Positions 20,909 through 30,260 of a stretch of 32,000 nucleotides of DNA are shown here, in pieces; the first letter of the stretch is position 1, and each line of letters begins with the position of its first letter. Under the pieces are notes generated by a model. It searched no databases. It was not told the origin of the DNA and saw nothing but the letters and a program-made list of their open reading frames with translations. This DNA comes from Xanthomonas campestris pv. campestris str. ATCC 33913 (lineage in GTDB: Bacteria; Pseudomonadota; Gammaproteobacteria; Xanthomonadales; Xanthomonadaceae), in contig NC_003902.1 in the NCBI RefSeq assembly GCF_000007145.1, forward strand, positions 4,913,426-4,945,425, written 5' to 3'. The position numbers were made by a program, and so were the translations under genes.

Positions 20909-21022
20909 AGGGACTTCCAACAGAGCGGGCCATTGTACCGGCGCGGCTGCGGGCAGGCCGCCGGCGTCGGTTCATGCGGCAAGCCATGACCGCACGCCAC
21001 CTGACCCGGTAAACTCATCCAA

Positions 21023-21041
21023 TGGCCAAGCTCTATTTCTA
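21023..21041. repeat. left copy of 19-bp direct repeat (attL-like core) at the native tdk start
   Basis: TGGCCAAGCTCTATTTCTA is identical to 25089..25107. Here it is preceded by A, giving ATG GCC AAG CTC TAT TTC TA. It continues TTATT, against CTACT at the right copy. Confidence 0.9.
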
Positions 21042-21518
21042 TTATTGGCGTAAGAGGGTGTTCAGAGGCGTAAGTAAATGGCTGTTTCTTAGCTTATTTT
21101 CGGGCCGTCTTCGTAAGTTGGTTTCAGGTTGTATTCGGACGCGATACCGTCGGCATGACACCGGCTGCTTATGCCCAACATCTGACAAACACCGATATCA
21201 TCAACCCCGGACTCTAAACCAAGCCGCTACTCAGGGCGGGGGGACGTCGATTGGTCCAATCGGCTTTTTGAGTTCTTTCGACGCGAGGCCCGGCGCTTGG
21301 GGGATCTCAAGACGCATGGGCTGCCCGCCTATGCGAACCAGCCCCATGGGACCTTGATCGTTCTGTGTTCCGCCGAGCGAGAACAAAGCTTGAAGATGAG
21401 CGCCAGAGTGCAGCGCGTTATTGCGGAGGCTTGAAGGCTTGGAGAATGTCCGAAGTGATACGCCCAGGGTTTCCTAGACATCTCAAGGCCATGGAAAATG
21501 GTCGATTCGGAGGTGCCT

Positions 21519-21791
21519 ATGAGCAGCAAGCGATATACGGATGAGTTCAAGATCGAGGCGGTCCGGCAAGTGACTGATCGTGGGTTCAAGGTGGCAGAAG
21601 TCGCCGAGCGGCTGGGTGTCACGACGCACAGCCTGTACGCCTGGCTGCGCACGTTCGGCAAGTCTGGCGTGGTGCATCGCGCCGAGGTGGACCAGAGCGC
21701 CGAGGTTCGGCGGCTGAAGGCAGAGTTGCGTCGAGTGACCGAGGAGCGCGACATCCTAAAAAAGGCCGCCGCGTACTTTGCCAAGGGGTAA
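21519..21791 (+). CDS. IS3-family transposase OrfA (HTH)
   Basis: MSSKRYTDEFKIEAVRQVTDRGFKVAEVAERLGVTTHSLYAWLRTFGK is an HTH_Tnp_1-type domain. A leucine-zipper-like segment RRLKAELRRVTEERDILKKAAAYF follows. GGAGG lies 5 nt upstream of the ATG at 21519. The track start at 21498 is an upstream in-frame ATG. Confidence 0.9.
   Translation: MSSKRYTDEFKIEAVRQVTDRGFKVAEVAERLGVTTHSLYAWLRTFGKSGVVHRAEVDQSAEVRRLKAELRRVTEERDILKKAAAYFAKG
21758..21764 (+). promoter_or_regulatory. programmed -1 ribosomal frameshift heptamer A AAA AAG
   Basis: In orfA's zero frame the sequence reads CTA AAA AAG (L K K). The heptamer therefore sits as A AAA AAG in X XXY YYZ register. The -1 frame is open from here into orfB (KKGRRVLCQGVKAKYAFMQAHCGEF...), as in IS3-family OrfAB fusions. 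Confidence 0.8.
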
Positions 21792-21808
21792 AGGCAAAGT
21801 ACGCCTTC

Positions 21809-22663
21809 ATGCAAGCCCACTGCGGGGAATTCAGGGTGTGTGCAATGTGCCGGGTATTGCGGGTCAACCGGTCGGGTTATTACGCCTGGTTGTGCTCGCC
21901 CAACAGTGAGCGCGCCAAGGAAGATGATCGCTTGCTTGGACTAATCAAGCACCACTGGCTGGCCAGCGGCAGTGTCTATGGGCATCGCAAGATCACCACG
22001 GATCTGCGCGATCTGGGTGAGCGTTGTAGTCGTCATCGGGTGCATCGGCTGATGCGCACCGAGGGACTGCGTGCCCAGGTGGGCTATGGTCGCAAACCGC
22101 GCTTCCATGGAGGAATGCAGTGCAAGGCGGCGGCCAACCTGCTTGACCGACAGTTCGACGTGACGGAGCCGGACACGGCCTGGGCGAGCGATTTCACCTT
22201 CATCCGCACGCATGAAGGCTGGATGTATTTGGCTGTTGTGATCGATCTGTTTTCCAGGCAGGTCGTCGGCTGGGCGATGCGCGATCGGGCCGACACCGAG
22301 TTGGTCGTGCAGGCGGTGTTGTCTGCGGTGTGGCGGCGCAAACCCAACGCTGGTTGCTTGGTTCATTCGGACCAAGGGTCTGTCTACACCAGCGATGACT
22401 GGCGCAGTTTCCTGGCGTCCCATGGCTTGGTGTGCAGCATGAGTCGGCGTGGCAACTGCCACGACAACGCACCCGTGGAGAGCTTCTTCGGCCTGCTCAA
22501 ACGCGAGCGGATCAGGCGGCGGACCTATCCCACCAAGGACGCCGCTCGCGCCGAGGTATTCGACTACATCGAGATGTTCTACAACCCCAACCGCCGCCAC
22601 GGTTCAACTGGCGACCTGTCACCTGTAGAGTTTGAACGGCGCTACGCGCAACGAGGGTCTTGA
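21809..22663 (+). CDS. IS3-family transposase OrfB (DDE / rve integrase domain), normally expressed as an OrfAB fusion
   Basis: WASDFTFIRTHEGWMYLAVVIDLFSRQVVGW has the first D, LVHSDQGSVYTS the second D, and CHDNAPVESFFGLLKRE the E. These are the classic rve catalytic-core blocks. The frame is -1 relative to orfA. Confidence 0.9.
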   Translation: MQAHCGEFRVCAMCRVLRVNRSGYYAWLCSPNSERAKEDDRLLGLIKHHWLASGSVYGHRKITTDLRDLGERCSRHRVHRLMRTEGLRAQVGYGRKPRFHGGMQCKAAANLLDRQFDVTEPDTAWASDFTFIRTHEGWMYLAVVIDLFSRQVVGWAMRDRADTELVVQAVLSAVWRRKPNAGCLVHSDQGSVYTSDDWRSFLASHGLVCSMSRRGNCHDNAPVESFFGLLKRERIRRRTYPTKDAARAEVFDYIEMFYNPNRRHGSTGDLSPVEFERRYAQRGS

Positions 22664-24691
22664 GTGTCTACGGAACCCTGGGCGTATCACCCACTTGTTC
22701 ATGTCCTTCTTACGGTCTCCCGAAGAGAACCGAGCGAACAACTTGGAGATGCGCTCTATTTCTTCCTGAGCCTTCTTGTGATTGTCCTCATCAACGGGGA
22801 GCACTCTTTCGCGCGCTGGATCGTCGATGCCCACGAATTGGGAGTAGCACATGAAGACTTCGCCCTGCGCTTCGTCATCAGCTACTTTTTTGCGCATGAT
22901 AAGAATAGACGTCTTGACTCTTGCTTCAGATCGCTGGAAGGCGTCGCCTGGCAGCGATACAACCGCTTCTACGATGTATTTTTGGGCTAGCCAGGCACGG
23001 GTAGTCGCGAAAGCCTTGCTGCCTAGTACGCTATCGTCTATCACGCTCACCAAACGCCCTCCTGGTTTGAGGAAGTCTAGATAACGCTCCAAGAACATTG
23101 CGCTCGACTTAAGTTTGGCTTTCGGAAGGATCTCGGCGGGACCGTCGTACGACAGCTCATACGCATCCAAAACCGACGGTGCGTATGCACGTCCACCACC
23201 CCGCTTCTTACGTTCGTAATCGCGCGCAAAGGGCGGATTTGTCAGTGCGACGTCAGCAAAGCCCTCAGCGTTGTCCTTCAGGACACGCTTAAAGTCTCTA
23301 AGTTCGGACCTGGACTCTGGGCTAGCATTGTTTTCCTCTGCGAGCCCCTTGTCCAATGCGTCCAACTGATAGATTGCGCTTCCGCCGTCTCCATGCAGAT
23401 ACATGTTCATTCTGGCGATGCGGGCCAGTGCCGGATCTTTGGCCGAGTCAATTCCGTAGATGCACTTAGTTGCGATATCGTTCTTAAGCTCATTCTTTGC
23501 AGCCTGCGACAGCTTGGGAGAGCTCTCAACCTTCTTCCACATAGCCGCCAGAGCCTCGATAAGGAACCCCCCACTTCCGCAGCATCCATCAATAACTACA
23601 TCGCATCCCTGATGCTTGATCCCAACTTGCAGATCAGACATCGCGACCGCCAACTTGACGACGCTTCGCGGCGTAAAGTACTGACCAAGCGACTTGCCCC
23701 TCAGAGTGGCATTCAGGAACGTCTCAAATAGACGACCATTGATATCGGCGTCCAAACCGTAGAGATCGGCGGATTCCAGACGCCGGACGATGTCTTTTGT
23801 CAGATCTTTGCTCAGGGCTAGCTTCTCGTTTTCCGAGAAGATGCGTTTTTTGTTTTGCTGTTTTATTTGGAGTTCAAGACTCTCACGAAGCTCATCAAAT
23901 CGGACAGCAATTGGATTATCAATCCCAGCTTCTTCCGCCGCATTGATGGCAGCCACAGAGAACTTCACATTGCGGGCAGGCTCGATCACCTGAAAAACGC
24001 CGGATTCAGCCATTTCAGGGTTCTTTTCGTGTACTTCGCGGTCTGATAGAAGCTTGATGAAGATAAGCTTCACAAATTCCATAAACGCAGCAGTGTAGCT
24101 GAGCGCGTCTTTTCTATGTATCTGATCATGGCACCAAGCAAAATCAGCGTTTAGATCGTTAGCGCTCTTCCTGCGTATTGTCAGGCTGGGCAACTGTTCG
24201 TTGAGCTGAACATTCAGTTTATCGCTATCAGCGGATAGCAGTTCCTTAAGCTGTTTTAGCTTCGGATTGCCCACCGCGAAGTCTTTGAAATCCATCACGA
24301 GAAGCGGCCGGCTTGAGTCCCAGTGGTACACGCGGGTTTCTTTGCCATTCGTCAGCATGTAGTAAAGGACGGGGTTCTCACCTGGGCCGTATCGCTCGTT
24401 AAGCTCATGGCAATAGCTCTTACATTGGCCGCGCCATTTCTCAATACCCTCTGATGGGCTCTTCGCATCACAGACCCAGCGAACGTGGCCGCCCTTAGTG
24501 ACAGCGAAATCAGGCCGATACAGTACACGCCGCCGACCAGCGCTAACAGAAAGCGTCTCGATGGTCTCTTTCAGCCGGATATTGGTGTCCTTGTAGCCAA
24601 GGAGGTCCTTCAGCATCCTCGCCATGAAGAACGACTCCACTCCGGCCTCGTTCCTAAGGTCCTTGTCCGTGCAAAGGATATTTTTAGTCAT
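22619..24691 (-). CDS. fusion of a PD-(D/E)xK (HSDR_N-like) nuclease domain with an HsdM-type gamma-class N6-adenine DNA methyltransferase; 3' end interrupted by the IS (native sequence 22690..24691, last 23 codons IS-encoded)
   Basis: ATG at 24691 gives MTKNILCTDKDL.... The track start GTG at 24736 is an alternative. The N-terminus is NEAGVESFFMARMLKDLLGYKD...VLYRPDFAV...VRWVCDAKSP, the type I R-subunit N-terminal nuclease pattern (E..VE, LGY, PD, D-x-K). The middle is HsdM_N-like (FAWCHDQIHRKDALSYTAAFMEFVKLIFIKLLSD). MTase motif X is LGQYFTPRSVV and motif I is VVIDGCCGSGGFLIEA. Then come IYGIDSAKDPALARIARMNMYLHG and motif IV LTNPPFA. The reading frame crosses the IS right end at 22689/22690 (...DMNKW | VIRPGFRRHS...LYR*). 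Confidence 0.85.
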   Translation of the reverse strand: MTKNILCTDKDLRNEAGVESFFMARMLKDLLGYKDTNIRLKETIETLSVSAGRRRVLYRPDFAVTKGGHVRWVCDAKSPSEGIEKWRGQCKSYCHELNERYGPGENPVLYYMLTNGKETRVYHWDSSRPLLVMDFKDFAVGNPKLKQLKELLSADSDKLNVQLNEQLPSLTIRRKSANDLNADFAWCHDQIHRKDALSYTAAFMEFVKLIFIKLLSDREVHEKNPEMAESGVFQVIEPARNVKFSVAAINAAEEAGIDNPIAVRFDELRESLELQIKQQNKKRIFSENEKLALSKDLTKDIVRRLESADLYGLDADINGRLFETFLNATLRGKSLGQYFTPRSVVKLAVAMSDLQVGIKHQGCDVVIDGCCGSGGFLIEALAAMWKKVESSPKLSQAAKNELKNDIATKCIYGIDSAKDPALARIARMNMYLHGDGGSAIYQLDALDKGLAEENNASPESRSELRDFKRVLKDNAEGFADVALTNPPFARDYERKKRGGGRAYAPSVLDAYELSYDGPAEILPKAKLKSSAMFLERYLDFLKPGGRLVSVIDDSVLGSKAFATTRAWLAQKYIVEAVVSLPGDAFQRSEARVKTSILIMRKKVADDEAQGEVFMCYSQFVGIDDPARERVLPVDEDNHKKAQEEIERISKLFARFSSGDRKKDMNKWVIRPGFRRHSRPSLRVAPFKLYR

Positions 24692-25087
24692 GCTGCCCTT
24701 AACTCCATCATGTCCTGTACTGTGACCACCAATCACTTTTTGGCTTTTGGTGATCAGTGCACCTGCACGTCTAACTGGCGGTCCAAGTCCACGCTATCGC
24801 GTGGGCGCTTGGTCTAACGATCTATGCTAGCTCAGGACAGCCCGAAGACGTCATTGCAGCAGCTTCGAGCCACTGCATTGGCGCGGTACAGTGGCGTCAG
24901 GCCATCTCGTATCCTGAGACAGCGCTCATGTTCGGGAAGCTGCGTTGCAACCGATTGCAACAGACGGTCCGTGCTGGACTCGCGGCACCGGCTGCAAGTG
25001 ACGGTATAACTGTCGGTACTGGTTCACAGTCATGCGTCCGCTTCCTACATAATTCCCATTAAATTCAATACCTTAAGTTGAACCCAG

Positions 25088-25717
25088 TTGGCCAAGCTCT
25101 ATTTCTACTACTCGGCAATGAATGCCGGGAAGACCACCACCTTGCTGCAGTCGGCGCACAACTACCGCGAGCGGGGTATGCGCACGTCCATCCTCACGCC
25201 CAAGCTCGATCACCGCGCCGGCAGCGGCGTGGTCGCCTCGCGCATCGGCTTGCGCGCCGATGGGCAGACCTTCGACCGCCAGACCGAGTTGCTGCAGTTG
25301 ATCGAGCGCGACATTGCCGCGCACGGCCCGCTGCACTGCGTGCTGGTCGACGAGGCGCAGTTCCTCAGCAGCGCGCAGGTCTGGCAGCTGAGCGAGGTGG
25401 TCGACCGCCTGCGCATCCCGGTGCTCTGCTACGGGTTGCGGACCGATTTCCGCGGCGAGCTGTTCGAAGGCAGCCAGTTCCTGCTGGCCTGGGCCGATGA
25501 GCTGGAAGAGATCAAGACCATCTGCCACAGCGGCAGCAAGGCCACCATGACCGTGCGCGTGGACGCACAAGGGCATGCGGTGCAGGACGGCCCGCAGGTG
25601 GAGATCGGCGGCAACGAGCGCTATGTCTCGGTCAGCCGCGCCGAGTTCAAGAAGATCATGCGTGGCGAAGGCCGGATCGACCCGCTGCAGATCGCGTTGC
25701 CGTTGCCGCCGGCGTAA
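25088..25717 (+). CDS. tdk: thymidine kinase (start codon now TTG; native ATG and upstream region displaced 4 kb to the left)
   Basis: (M)[32 protein letters not shown]...[11 protein letters not shown]...[44 protein letters not shown]...[12 protein letters not shown] is near-colinear with E. coli Tdk ([17 protein letters not shown]...). 209 aa. Confidence 0.9.
25089..25107. repeat. right copy of 19-bp direct repeat (attR-like core) at the present tdk 5' end
   Basis: TGGCCAAGCTCTATTTCTA is identical to 21023..21041. Here it is preceded by T, giving TTG GCC AAG.... Confidence 0.9.
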
Positions 25718-30103: not shown

Positions 30104-30260
30104 GCCCAACTCCGCATCCATCGATCAGCCAATTGTCGCGCGCTGGTGCGCGGCACACCAGCAAGTGCGCTGCAGGAGCGAGCGCTGCCGATGTCTGCAG
30201 GTGCAACTGGCAAAGCACCAAATAATGCGAAACGTAGACGCGATGCCGACATGCATCGGA

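What the first reader, a model, noticed from the sequence alone, without database searches (positions are those of the whole stretch)
22619..24736. Single-polypeptide nuclease-methyltransferase (HSDR_N-like PD-(D/E)xK + HsdM_N + N6_Mtase) with no specificity partner
The protein has three parts. The first is an N-terminal domain with the type I R-subunit N-terminal nuclease pattern (GVESFF...LLGYKD...YRPDFAV...WVCDAKSP). The second is an HsdM-like helical region. The third is a complete gamma-class adenine MTase core (YFTPRSVV, VIDGCCGSGGF, NPPF). This architecture resembles the A subunit of BcgI-type (type IIB) systems, or type IIG enzymes. BcgI-type enzymes need a separate HsdS-like subunit. 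MmeI-type enzymes carry a C-terminal target-recognition domain. Neither is present here. About 60 residues after the MTase core the frame runs into the IS3 right end and picks up 23 IS-encoded codons. Two readings are possible. The system may have been inactivated by loss of its downstream specificity module. Alternatively it may be a compact stand-alone defence or epigenetic enzyme whose specificity determinant is not obvious. Both are worth resolving, because such HSDR_N-HsdM fusions are poorly characterised.
Basis: partly seen in the sequence, partly recalled or inferred. Interest (0 to 1): 0.7.

Follow-up and report, generated by a model that had tools for sequence, protein, structure and literature searches.

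The report
IS-truncated fused restriction-modification gene remnant
This is a broken copy of a one-protein restriction-modification enzyme (nuclease, DNA methylase and DNA-reading domain in one chain): an insertion sequence removed the DNA-reading end, so the missing specificity partner is explained and the gene is almost certainly dead.

Summary
The ORF and all quoted motifs are real. It is not a compact stand-alone enzyme. It is the 5' 73% of a 908-aa gene.

An IS3-family element (21456-22689) sits where 686 bp of coding sequence used to be. The last 11 codons and the stop codon survive on the far side of the IS (21418-21453).

Intact 908-aa alleles exist at the same tdk|rep locus in X. campestris CP066969.1, and in S. 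maltophilia inside an integrase-bearing island. The lost piece encodes a single HsdS-type target-recognition domain plus a coiled-coil helix.

The intact protein has four modules: PD-(D/E)xK nuclease, helical connector, gamma-class N6-adenine methyltransferase and TRD-CR. Residues D61 and K77 are invariant, position 75 is always D or E, and E19 is present in 101 of 102 homologues. The closest solved structure is the RM subunit of the Type IIB enzyme BsaXI.

The family was found in at least 579 species genomes. It has no conserved neighbour gene. Distant relatives are two-gene RM + HsdS systems.

The likely mechanism of the intact enzyme is a homodimeric BcgI/BsaXI-like restriction-modification enzyme acting on a symmetric bipartite site. 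This is an inference. The window copy lacks any TRD and is predicted to be inactive.

Interest is low to moderate.

The parts
22690..24691 (-). Surviving 5' part (codons 1-667 plus 1 nt) of the 908-codon fused restriction-modification gene
   Evidence: It is 99.9% identical to the same gene in X. campestris CP066997.1 and aligns with the intact allele in CP066969.1. The reconstruction gives 908 aa. The 690-aa product is identical to P0121.
24287..24691 (-). N-terminal PD-(D/E)xK (HSDR_N-type) nuclease domain, residues 1-135, with E19, P60-D61 and D75-A-K77
   Evidence: Across 102 homologues D61 and K77 are invariant, position 75 is D or E in every one, and E15 and E19 are present in 101. HSDR_N or HSDR_N_2 is hit in 24-30 of 53 homologues. 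The HMM alignment places D61 and (D/E)75-x-K77 on BsaXI D90 and E105-x-K107, which are catalytic by mutagenesis (PMC11997821).
23777..24163 (-). Multi-helical connector (HsdM N-terminal-like), residues 177-305
   Evidence: The AF2 model is helical here with pLDDT 84-95. Foldseek aligns about 700 columns to BsaXI RM and 566 columns to HsdM 5ybb_A. There is no Pfam HsdM_N hit.
22799..23776 (-). Gamma-class N6-adenine DNA methyltransferase domain, residues 306-631 (motif I VIDGCCGSGGF, motif IV NPPF)
   Evidence: Pfam N6_Mtase E 1.4e-30 and Eco57I E 8.7e-8. NPPF and the motif I glycines are invariant in 102 homologues.
22721..22798 (-). Post-methyltransferase long helix (residues 632-657). Natural two-gene relatives end their RM polypeptide just after the equivalent helix.
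   Evidence: AF2 helix 632-657. RM polypeptides of L073, L077 and L079 end with the equivalent helix and are followed by an HsdS gene.
22619..22689 (-). IS-encoded read-through tail (22-23 codons plus stop) of the truncated ORF
   Evidence: The junction lies at 22689/22690 by comparison with the intact alleles. The tail IRPGFRRHSRPSLRVAPFKLYR is also present in the ATCC 33913/8004 annotation P0128.
21456..22689 (+). IS3-family insertion sequence, 1234 bp: imperfect 26-nt terminal inverted repeats, orfA 21498-21791, orfB 21809-22663
   Evidence: Inverted repeats 21455-21480 and 22665-22690 are 92% complementary. orfA hits HTH_Tnp_1 at 5.5e-17; orfB hits rve at 3.2e-27 and HTH_21. There is no target-site duplication, and the flanking sequences are 686 bp apart in intact alleles.
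21418..21453 (-). 3' remnant of the same gene: last 11 codons plus stop (SDILQAFKPPQ*)
   Evidence: Translation. The 38 nt from 21418 to 21455 are identical to the 3' end of the intact gene in L002.
21045..21417 (.). Remaining non-coding left part of the island (region downstream of the RM gene joined to the integrase-proximal island end)
   Evidence: Window 21255-21455 matches S. maltophilia L003 12690-12886. Window 21022-21152 matches L003 17346-17475, which lies next to the integrase.
21023..21041 (+). Left copy of the 19-nt att core (TGGCCAAGCTCTATTTCTA), carrying the original ATG and 5' end of tdk
   Evidence: Direct repeat. The same core bounds the island in X. campestris and S. maltophilia.
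25089..25107 (+). Right copy of the 19-nt att core, at the present 5' end of tdk (TTG start at 25088)
24692..25088 (.). Island right end: region upstream of the RM gene. It now also forms the sequence upstream of tdk.
   Evidence: G+C of the island without the IS is 0.53, against 0.65-0.67 in the flanks.

Best explanation
The ORF is a pseudogene, the IS-truncated remnant of a horizontally acquired 908-aa single-polypeptide restriction-modification enzyme.

**What happened (shown by comparison)**
- An IS3-family element now occupies the place of 686 bp of the gene.
- That segment encoded a single HsdS-type target-recognition domain and most of its coiled-coil conserved-region (CR) helix.

**What the intact enzyme probably does (inferred)**
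- Its domain order is PD-(D/E)xK nuclease, helical connector, gamma-class N6-adenine methyltransferase, TRD-CR. This is a fused RM plus half-S version of the BcgI/BsaXI (Type IIB) design.
- Two chains would pair through the CR helix and the post-methyltransferase helix. This would rebuild the (RM)2S arrangement.
- The dimer would read a symmetric bipartite site. It would methylate adenine there on host DNA and cut unmodified DNA near the site with the N-terminal nuclease.

**What the window copy probably does (inferred)**
- It keeps the nuclease and methyltransferase but has no TRD.
- It should therefore neither find a site nor methylate or restrict. It is a relic carried by a decayed integrative island in the 5' end of tdk.
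For: **Truncation**
- Homologues are 870-935 aa.
- The same locus in CP066997.1 has an intact 3' end, and CP066969.1 has an intact 908-aa gene.
- 686 bp are missing from the window, there is no target-site duplication, and the last 11 codons and the stop codon survive at 21418-21453.

**The lost part is a TRD**
- Family profile against PDB HsdS chains 5ybb_D and 3okg_A: E 3e-9.
- PADLOC Specificity_I: E 4.4e-13 on residues 735-878.
- A TRD profile finds canonical two-TRD HsdS proteins at E 1e-21 to 1e-28.

**Nuclease**
- D61 and K77 are invariant in 102 homologues, position 75 is always D or E, and E19 is present in 101.
- D61 and (D/E)75-x-K77 align to BsaXI D90/E105/K107, which are catalytic by mutagenesis (PMC11997821).

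**Overall fold**
- AF2 model pLDDT 89.4.
- The best Foldseek hits are BsaXI RM chains, E 7e-21 over about 700 columns.

**Solitary gene**
- No conserved neighbour was found in 85 loci.

**Two-gene relatives**
- Distant relatives are two-gene RM + HsdS systems whose RM ends about where the window protein is cut.

**Purifying selection on intact alleles**
- X. campestris against S. maltophilia: 249 synonymous and 31 non-synonymous codon differences.

**Precedent for a half-S**
- BsaXI RM plus an engineered TRD1-CR1 cuts at the symmetric site AC N5 GT (PMC9159934).
- HaeIV is a single-chain Type IIB enzyme that forms homodimers (PMC4027205).

**Repeated independent disruption in X. campestris**
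-.
Against: - No biochemical or methylome data exist for any member, so cleavage, methylation, dimerisation and site symmetry are all inferred.
- The window protein's own HSDR_N hits are below Pfam cut-offs.
- PADLOC scores it best as a plain 'MTase_II', not as a IIG REase-MTase.
- The TRD is nearly as conserved (0.51 pairwise identity) as the catalytic domains. This is unusual for families that shuffle specificity.
- The truncated 690-aa allele is carried with few changes in about 90 X. campestris contigs. This is compatible with recent clonal inheritance but does not exclude residual use.
Confidence: 0.85

Rival explanations
1. The truncated 690-aa protein is still functional. It would act as a BcgI-A-like RM subunit that borrows a specificity subunit encoded elsewhere, for example a Type I HsdS, or it would work as a low-specificity methyltransferase or nuclease.
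For: - It ends about 10 residues after the point where natural two-gene relatives end their RM polypeptide, and it keeps the post-methyltransferase helix.
- All catalytic motifs are intact.
- The allele is widespread and nearly invariant in X. campestris pv. campestris.
- X. campestris pv. campestris 8004 has a Type I system elsewhere (XVR22 in PMC2246292).
Against: - The end point was created by an IS-linked deletion and carries a junk 22-residue tail.
- Other strains disrupted the same gene at other places, as expected for a dispensable gene.
- There is no S gene in the island or the window.
- Window against intact allele: 3 non-synonymous and 1 synonymous change. The numbers are small but show no sign of constraint.
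- From general knowledge of BcgI and Type I enzymes, RM/M subunits pair with their cognate S subunits through matched helices.
Confidence: 0.06
2. The intact family is methyltransferase-only (an orphan or epigenetic enzyme). Its N-terminal PD-(D/E)xK-like domain would serve DNA binding or regulation, not cleavage.
For: - Source annotations and the best PADLOC model call it a methylase.
- The conserved TRD resembles conserved-specificity orphan methyltransferases. CamA is among the fold hits.
Against: - The nuclease catalytic positions are conserved across phyla: D61 and K77 in all 102 homologues, D or E at position 75 in all, and E19 in 101.
- The gene sits in mobile or defence contexts: beside BREX, beside McrBC, near IS elements, and in an integrase island.
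- Its distribution is patchy and it is repeatedly inactivated, which is typical of restriction systems.
- Its closest solved relative, BsaXI, is an active Type IIB nuclease.
Confidence: 0.08
3. It is the methyltransferase component (MAD2) of a MADS-type multi-gene defence system, or of a Type I or BREX system, whose partner genes were lost.
For: - NCBIfam MADS2 is the top hit (197 bits).
- PADLOC mad2 E 3e-38.
Against: - The score is far below the MADS2 cut-off of 720. hsdM scores 33 against 243 and PglX 19.5 against 500.
- MADS is an 8-gene operon with a separate specificity subunit (bioRxiv 10.1101/2023.03.30.534895).
- Intact alleles and 85 related loci have no such neighbours.
Confidence: 0.01

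Closest known systems
BsaXI / BcgI (Type IIB, (RM)2S)
   Same: - N-terminal PD-(D/E)xK nuclease, multi-helical connector and gamma-class N6A methyltransferase in one chain.
- Best PDB match by profile (E 8e-33) and by fold (E 7e-21).
- HsdS-type specificity module.
- Distant relatives of the family are two-gene RM + S systems like BcgI and BsaXI.
   Different: - Here a single TRD-CR (half-S) is fused to the C-terminus instead of sitting in a separate two-TRD S subunit.
- The RM part is about 660 aa, against 916 aa in BsaXI.
- Sequence identity is only 18-20%.
- I did not test for the BsaXI knob or paddle motifs.
- In the window copy the TRD is deleted.
HaeIV, and AloI/TstI/CjeI-type single-chain Type IIB enzymes
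   Same: All three functions (R, M, S) are in one polypeptide. HaeIV is reported to form homodimers (PMC4027205).
   Different: - AloI/TstI-type RMS fusions carry TRD1-CR1-TRD2-CR2 (PMC11997821). This family has one TRD-CR.
- Homology to HaeIV could not be tested because no sequence was at hand.
Engineered BsaXI RM + TRD1-CR1 half-S, and natural half-size HsdS
   Same: One TRD-CR per RM. This arrangement gives an active enzyme with a symmetric bipartite site, AC N5 GT (PMC9159934). It is the functional model for the intact allele.
   Different: That arrangement is engineered and in trans. Here it is natural and covalently fused.
BpuSI / Eco57I-type Type IIG enzymes
   Same: Single-chain nuclease-methyltransferase-TRD of about 880 aa. 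There is a Pfam Eco57I hit, and Foldseek hits 3s1s at E 1.7e-14.
   Different: - The PADLOC IIG models score weakly (about 43 bits).
- The TRD here is HsdS-type with a long CR helix, which suggests dimeric rather than monomeric asymmetric recognition.
MADS MAD2 methyltransferase
   Same: It is the best NCBIfam hit. Both are related HsdM-like gamma-class methyltransferases with an N-terminal extension.
   Different: The score is 197 bits against a cut-off of 720. MADS needs 7-8 genes, including a separate S subunit, and none is present here.

Membership tests
BcgI/BsaXI-like Type IIB (or IIG/IIC) fused restriction-modification enzymes | N-terminal PD-(D/E)xK endonuclease domain with catalytic acidic residues and Lys | tested here: met
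   E19, D61 and D75-A-K77 are present in the window protein. In 102 homologues D61 and K77 are invariant, position 75 is D or E, and E19 is present in 101. D61 and D75-x-K77 align to BsaXI D90/E105/K107. Pfam HSDR_N/HSDR_N_2 is sub-threshold in the window copy but hit in 24-30 of 53 homologues.
BcgI/BsaXI-like Type IIB (or IIG/IIC) fused restriction-modification enzymes | Gamma-class N6-adenine methyltransferase domain (motif I, NPPF) in the same chain, after a helical connector | tested here: met
   N6_Mtase E 1.4e-30. The motifs are invariant. Foldseek aligns about 700 columns to BsaXI RM.
BcgI/BsaXI-like Type IIB (or IIG/IIC) fused restriction-modification enzymes | HsdS-type specificity module (separate S subunit or fused TRDs) | tested here: not met
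   The window copy has no TRD because 686 bp were deleted, and there is no S gene nearby. The intact allele P0130 does have one TRD-CR. The ancestral gene therefore meets this feature and the window copy does not.
BcgI/BsaXI-like Type IIB (or IIG/IIC) fused restriction-modification enzymes | Cleavage at fixed distances on both sides of a bipartite site, and methylation of that site | not testable with these tools
   This needs enzyme assays or a methylome.
MADS (MAD2 methyltransferase) | NCBIfam NF047738 score above the cut-off, and an 8-gene mad operon | tested here: not met
   196.8 bits against a cut-off of 720. No mad-like neighbours were found in the window or in 85 related loci. Operon composition is from bioRxiv 10.1101/2023.03.30.534895.
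Type I restriction-modification HsdM | TIGR00497 equivalog score, with adjacent hsdS and hsdR | tested here: not met
   32.8 bits against a cut-off of 242.75. There are no hsdR or hsdS neighbours. Pfam HsdM_N is not detected.
MmeI-type (Type IIL) enzymes / BREX PglX | MmeI_Mtase and associated MmeI domains, or a PglX model score with brx genes | tested here: not met
   MmeI_Mtase scores 17 bits against a cut-off of 27. PglX scores 19.5 bits against 500.
IS3-family insertion sequence (the disrupting element) | Two ORFs (HTH_Tnp_1 orfA, DDE rve orfB) and terminal inverted repeats ending TG...CA | tested here: met
   A target-site duplication is absent, which is consistent with an adjacent deletion.

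The most novel reading that the evidence does not exclude
The intact 908-aa family would be a natural, previously unrecognised subtype of Type IIB-like restriction enzymes.

- It would be an RM-half-S fusion that works as a homodimer on a symmetric bipartite site.
- Its TRD is unusually conserved from Proteobacteria to Archaea, which implies one shared or slowly drifting specificity.
- It is currently annotated only as 'N-6 DNA methylase' and missed as a nuclease by defence-system finders.
- A bolder extension: the widespread 690-aa X. campestris allele retains activity by pairing with a foreign HsdS.
Probability: 0.3. Interest if true: 0.5.

Novelty: new variant of a known kind. Interest (0 to 1): 0.27.

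Why it matters
**For the window itself, little.** It documents one more IS-inactivated restriction gene on a decayed island. That island is a known variable region, XVR27, of X. campestris pv. campestris.

**For annotation**
- It shows that 'N-6 DNA methylase', 'XmnI methyltransferase' and 'restriction endonuclease subunit M' are labels on a fused nuclease-methylase-specificity enzyme.
- The enzyme family was found in at least 579 species genomes.

**For enzymology**
- The intact alleles (X. campestris WDK31811.1, S. maltophilia WP_414486293.1) are ready candidates for a natural half-S Type IIB-like enzyme.
- Together with the two-gene relatives, they would allow a direct test of how fusing or splitting the S module shapes site symmetry and cleavage.

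Tried and rejected
**Family assignments rejected**
- MADS/MAD2 membership: top NCBIfam hit but 197 bits against a cut-off of 720, and no operon.
- Type I HsdM, MmeI and PglX: all far below their cut-offs.

**Searches for a partner gene**
- Six hand-inspected contexts plus ORF clustering over 85 loci found none. The only recurring neighbour is an unknown ~146-aa ORF limited to 10 actinobacterial loci, with no Pfam hit.
- The small ORFs of the S. maltophilia island gave only HTH and C-protein-like hits.

**Searches that were uninformative**
- A word-index protein search with the TRD alone returned only 12 fragments. The exhaustive profile search replaced it.
- The available Xanthomonas methylome paper (PMC5117858) covers other species and says nothing about this gene.
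- The promoter/terminator scan of the island found nothing above chance.

**Not possible with these tools**
- A REBASE BLAST.
- An HaeIV sequence comparison.
- Multimer structure prediction.
- Finding an empty tdk site.


Full report
**1. The observation**

The ORF 22619..24736 (-) exists as 705 aa from a GTG. The ATG at 24691, preceded by AAGGG, is the likelier start. It gives 690 aa, identical to the NCBI X. campestris protein P0121, and it matches the start of the intact 908-aa alleles.

| Motif | Position |
|---|---|
| GVESFF | N-terminal domain |
| YRPDFAV (P60-D61) | nt 24509-24514 |
| WVCDAKSP (D75-A-K77) | nt 24461-24469 |
| YFTPRSVV | methyltransferase domain |
| VIDGCCGSGGF | nt 23564-23596 |
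| NPPF | nt 23228-23239 |

Pfam gives N6_Mtase at E 1.4e-30 and Eco57I at E 8.7e-8. The N-terminal 178 residues alone reach only sub-threshold HSDR_N_2 (E 0.0023) and HSDR_N (E 0.038). Among 53 homologues, 30 hit HSDR_N_2 and 24 hit HSDR_N at E <= 0.01. Pfam HsdM_N is not detected.

The frame enters an IS3-family element at 22689/22690 and reads 22-23 IS codons. That element has:
- 26-nt imperfect inverted repeats at 21455-21480 and 22665-22690;
- orfA with HTH_Tnp_1;
- orfB with rve.

**2. What is really there: a truncated gene**

Homologues are 870-935 aa, not about 670 aa.

- *X. campestris CP066997.1 (L001).* The same tdk|rep locus carries the same gene at 99.9% identity. A different IS3-family element sits at window-equivalent 24410-24414, and the 3' end is intact.
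- *X. campestris CP066969.1 (L002).* This strain has an undisrupted 908-aa gene at the same locus, with nothing else between tdk and rep.

Alignment shows that the window lacks 686 bp (L001 11608-12293). The IS sits exactly in their place, and it has no target-site duplication. The last 11 codons plus the stop (SDILQAFKPPQ*) survive at 21418-21453 on the far side of the IS. The window therefore holds codons 1-667 of 908.

The 690-aa allele is common in X. campestris pv. campestris. It accounts for about 90 contigs, and ATCC 33913 and 8004 annotate a 487-aa piece of it as 'XmnI methyltransferase'. At least one other independent disruption exists, and a 682-aa N-truncated form may be a further one. 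He et al. 2007 already listed the locus as variable region XVR27, recently acquired (PMC2246292).

**3. The lost part is the specificity domain**

- The family profile matches HsdS chains 5ybb_D and 3okg_A at E 3e-9 over profile positions 749-875.
- PADLOC Specificity_I scores E 4.4e-13 on residues 735-878 of the intact protein.
- Methylase_S is hit in 2 of 53 members.
- A profile of the C-terminal region was searched exhaustively against 1.84 billion representatives. It finds 76 proteins at E <= 1e-30, which are fusions and fragments. From about E 1e-28 it finds canonical 370-460-aa HsdS proteins with two matching stretches.
- The AF2 model of the intact protein has pLDDT 89.4 and pTM 0.78. 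It shows a beta-rich domain at about residues 700-852, a 35-residue helix at 855-889, and a short helix carrying the near-invariant AFKPP end.

The architecture is therefore nuclease (1-135), helical connector (177-305), methyltransferase (306-631), long helix (632-657), and one TRD-CR.

**4. Family and mechanism**

*Closest solved relative.* The RM subunit of the Type IIB enzyme BsaXI is the best match by profile (E 8e-33) and by fold (E 7e-21 over about 700 columns). It is followed by Type I HsdM, DrdV, BrxX, BpuSI, CamA and LlaBIII.

*Nuclease residues.* The HMM alignment places D61 on BsaXI D90 and (D/E)75-x-K77 on BsaXI E105-x-K107. BsaXI E73, D90, E105 and K107 are the residues whose alanine substitution abolishes cleavage (PMC11997821). 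Conservation in 102 homologues of about 47% identity:

| Position | Conservation |
|---|---|
| P60, D61, K77 | 102/102 |
| Position 75 | E in 62, D in 40 |
| E15, E19 | 101/102 |
| NPPF | 102/102 |

*Selection.* The intact X. campestris and S. maltophilia alleles differ by 249 synonymous and 31 non-synonymous codons. The nuclease domain accounts for 36 and 2 of these, and the TRD for 38 and 9.

*Distribution.* The family is very widespread. At least 579 species-representative genomes carry it, across many bacterial phyla and some archaea, and most align over residues 1-908.

*Genomic context.* The gene is solitary.
- Hand inspection of six contexts found no conserved neighbour: Xanthomonas, Stenotrophomonas, Flaviflexus, Gracilibacillus (beside BREX), Actinocrispum and Kytococcus (beside McrBC).
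- ORF clustering over 85 loci agreed. The only exception is an unknown ~146-aa ORF in 10 actinobacterial loci.

*Two-gene relatives.* More distant relatives (L073, L077, L079) are two-gene systems. An RM polypeptide of 614-654 aa is followed by a full two-TRD HsdS gene. The RM ends at the helix equivalent to residues 632-657. The IS truncation in the window has therefore produced, by accident, something the length of a natural BcgI-A-like subunit but without any S.

*Inferred mechanism of the intact enzyme.* It is a BcgI/BsaXI-like restriction-modification enzyme in which half an S subunit is fused to RM. Two chains would pair through the CR helix and the post-methyltransferase helix. This gives the equivalent of (RM)2S and a symmetric bipartite recognition site, with adenine methylation for self-protection and cleavage by the N-terminal nuclease.

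Precedents:
- BsaXI RM plus an engineered TRD1-CR1 cuts at AC N5 GT (PMC9159934).
- HaeIV is a single-chain Type IIB enzyme that forms homodimers (PMC4027205).
- Known RMS-fusion Type IIB enzymes otherwise carry TRD1-CR1-TRD2-CR2 (PMC11997821).

Dimerisation, site symmetry and cut positions are inference only.

*The window copy.* It has no TRD and is predicted inactive for both activities.

**5. The island**

The gene sits in a 4.07-kb low-G+C insert. Without the IS its G+C is 0.53, against 0.65-0.67 in the flanks. The insert lies between rep/uvrD and tdk and is bounded by a 19-nt direct repeat of the tdk 5' end, at 21023-21041 and 25089-25107.

In S. maltophilia the same core bounds a 7.9-kb island. 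That island carries the same gene at 86% nucleotide identity over the part the window retains, four small ORFs including a C-protein-like HTH, and a P4-type tyrosine integrase. The X. campestris island kept only the RM gene and the two island ends. As a consequence, tdk now starts at a TTG with island DNA upstream, while the original ATG lies 4 kb away.

**6. Rivals**

- *Residual function of the 690-aa protein with a foreign S subunit.* This is not excluded, but it is unlikely. The end point is accidental, the tail is junk, other strains disrupted the gene independently, and there is no S gene nearby.
- *Methyltransferase-only reading of the family.* This is disfavoured by the conserved nuclease residues and the defence and mobile contexts.
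- *MADS, Type I, MmeI and BREX membership.* All fail their score cut-offs and their context requirements.

**7. Verdict**

The reading 'compact stand-alone enzyme' is wrong.

The object in the window is an ordinary pseudogene. The family behind it is a recognisable but apparently uncharacterised fused RM-half-S variant of the BcgI/BsaXI design.

Noticed in passing
window 21022-21044 and 25088-25110 (tdk 25088-25717, +): The island integrated into the first codons of thymidine kinase. tdk now begins with TTG and has island DNA as its upstream region. The original ATG and the promoter side are stranded 4 kb away, fused to island sequence (spurious ORF 21022-21357). Whether tdk expression is altered is unknown.
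   Followed up: partly
L003 9599-17474 (S. maltophilia JAXAZC010000002.1); also L004, L005: A 7.9-kb integrative island is bounded by the same 19-nt tdk core. It carries the intact 908-aa gene, a P4-type tyrosine integrase, a C-protein-like HTH (PADLOC Control_protein E 1.5e-15) and three ORFs with no family hits of note (105 aa and 329 aa with none, 133 aa with only weak HTH hits). It is the probable ancestor of the reduced X. campestris island.
   Followed up: partly
L001 8684-9881 (X. campestris CP066997.1), equivalent to window 24410-24414: A different IS3-family element independently disrupts the same gene near codon 94, with a 5-bp overlap that looks like a target duplication. A 682-aa N-truncated form (P0129) may be a third disruption. 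The gene appears to be inactivated repeatedly in X. campestris.
   Followed up: partly
L006 10701-11144; also L012, L014-L017, L020, L021, L036, L053: A conserved ~146-aa ORF with no Pfam match lies a few to ~20 nt downstream of the RM gene, on the same strand, in 10 actinobacterial loci. It is absent from the Xanthomonas and Stenotrophomonas copies. Its function is unknown.
   Followed up: partly
L073 5255-8649, L077 2807-6053, L079 5998-9274: Archaeal and Bacteroidota relatives are split into an RM polypeptide (614-654 aa) plus a full two-TRD HsdS gene. The same enzyme lineage therefore exists in both fused and two-gene forms.
   Followed up: yes
alignment A2, residues 701-852 of the intact protein: The TRD is almost as conserved as the catalytic domains across phyla. 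Mean pairwise identity is 0.51, against 0.56 for the nuclease and 0.64 for the methyltransferase. This is unusual for Type I/IIB-like specificity domains and suggests a shared or slowly changing recognition sequence.
   Followed up: partly
L007 1-6338 and L009 11097-14260: Homologues sit next to other defence systems: BREX (PglX, PglZ, BrxL) in Gracilibacillus, and McrBC in Kytococcus-like contigs. This is a defence-island context.
   Followed up: no
window 30173-30176: Relative to the window, strain CP066997.1 carries an extra IS between mutM and the DUF4380 gene (L001 1693-2917), and strain CP066969.1 carries a DDE_Tnp_1 element there. The neighbourhood is an IS hot spot.
   Followed up: no
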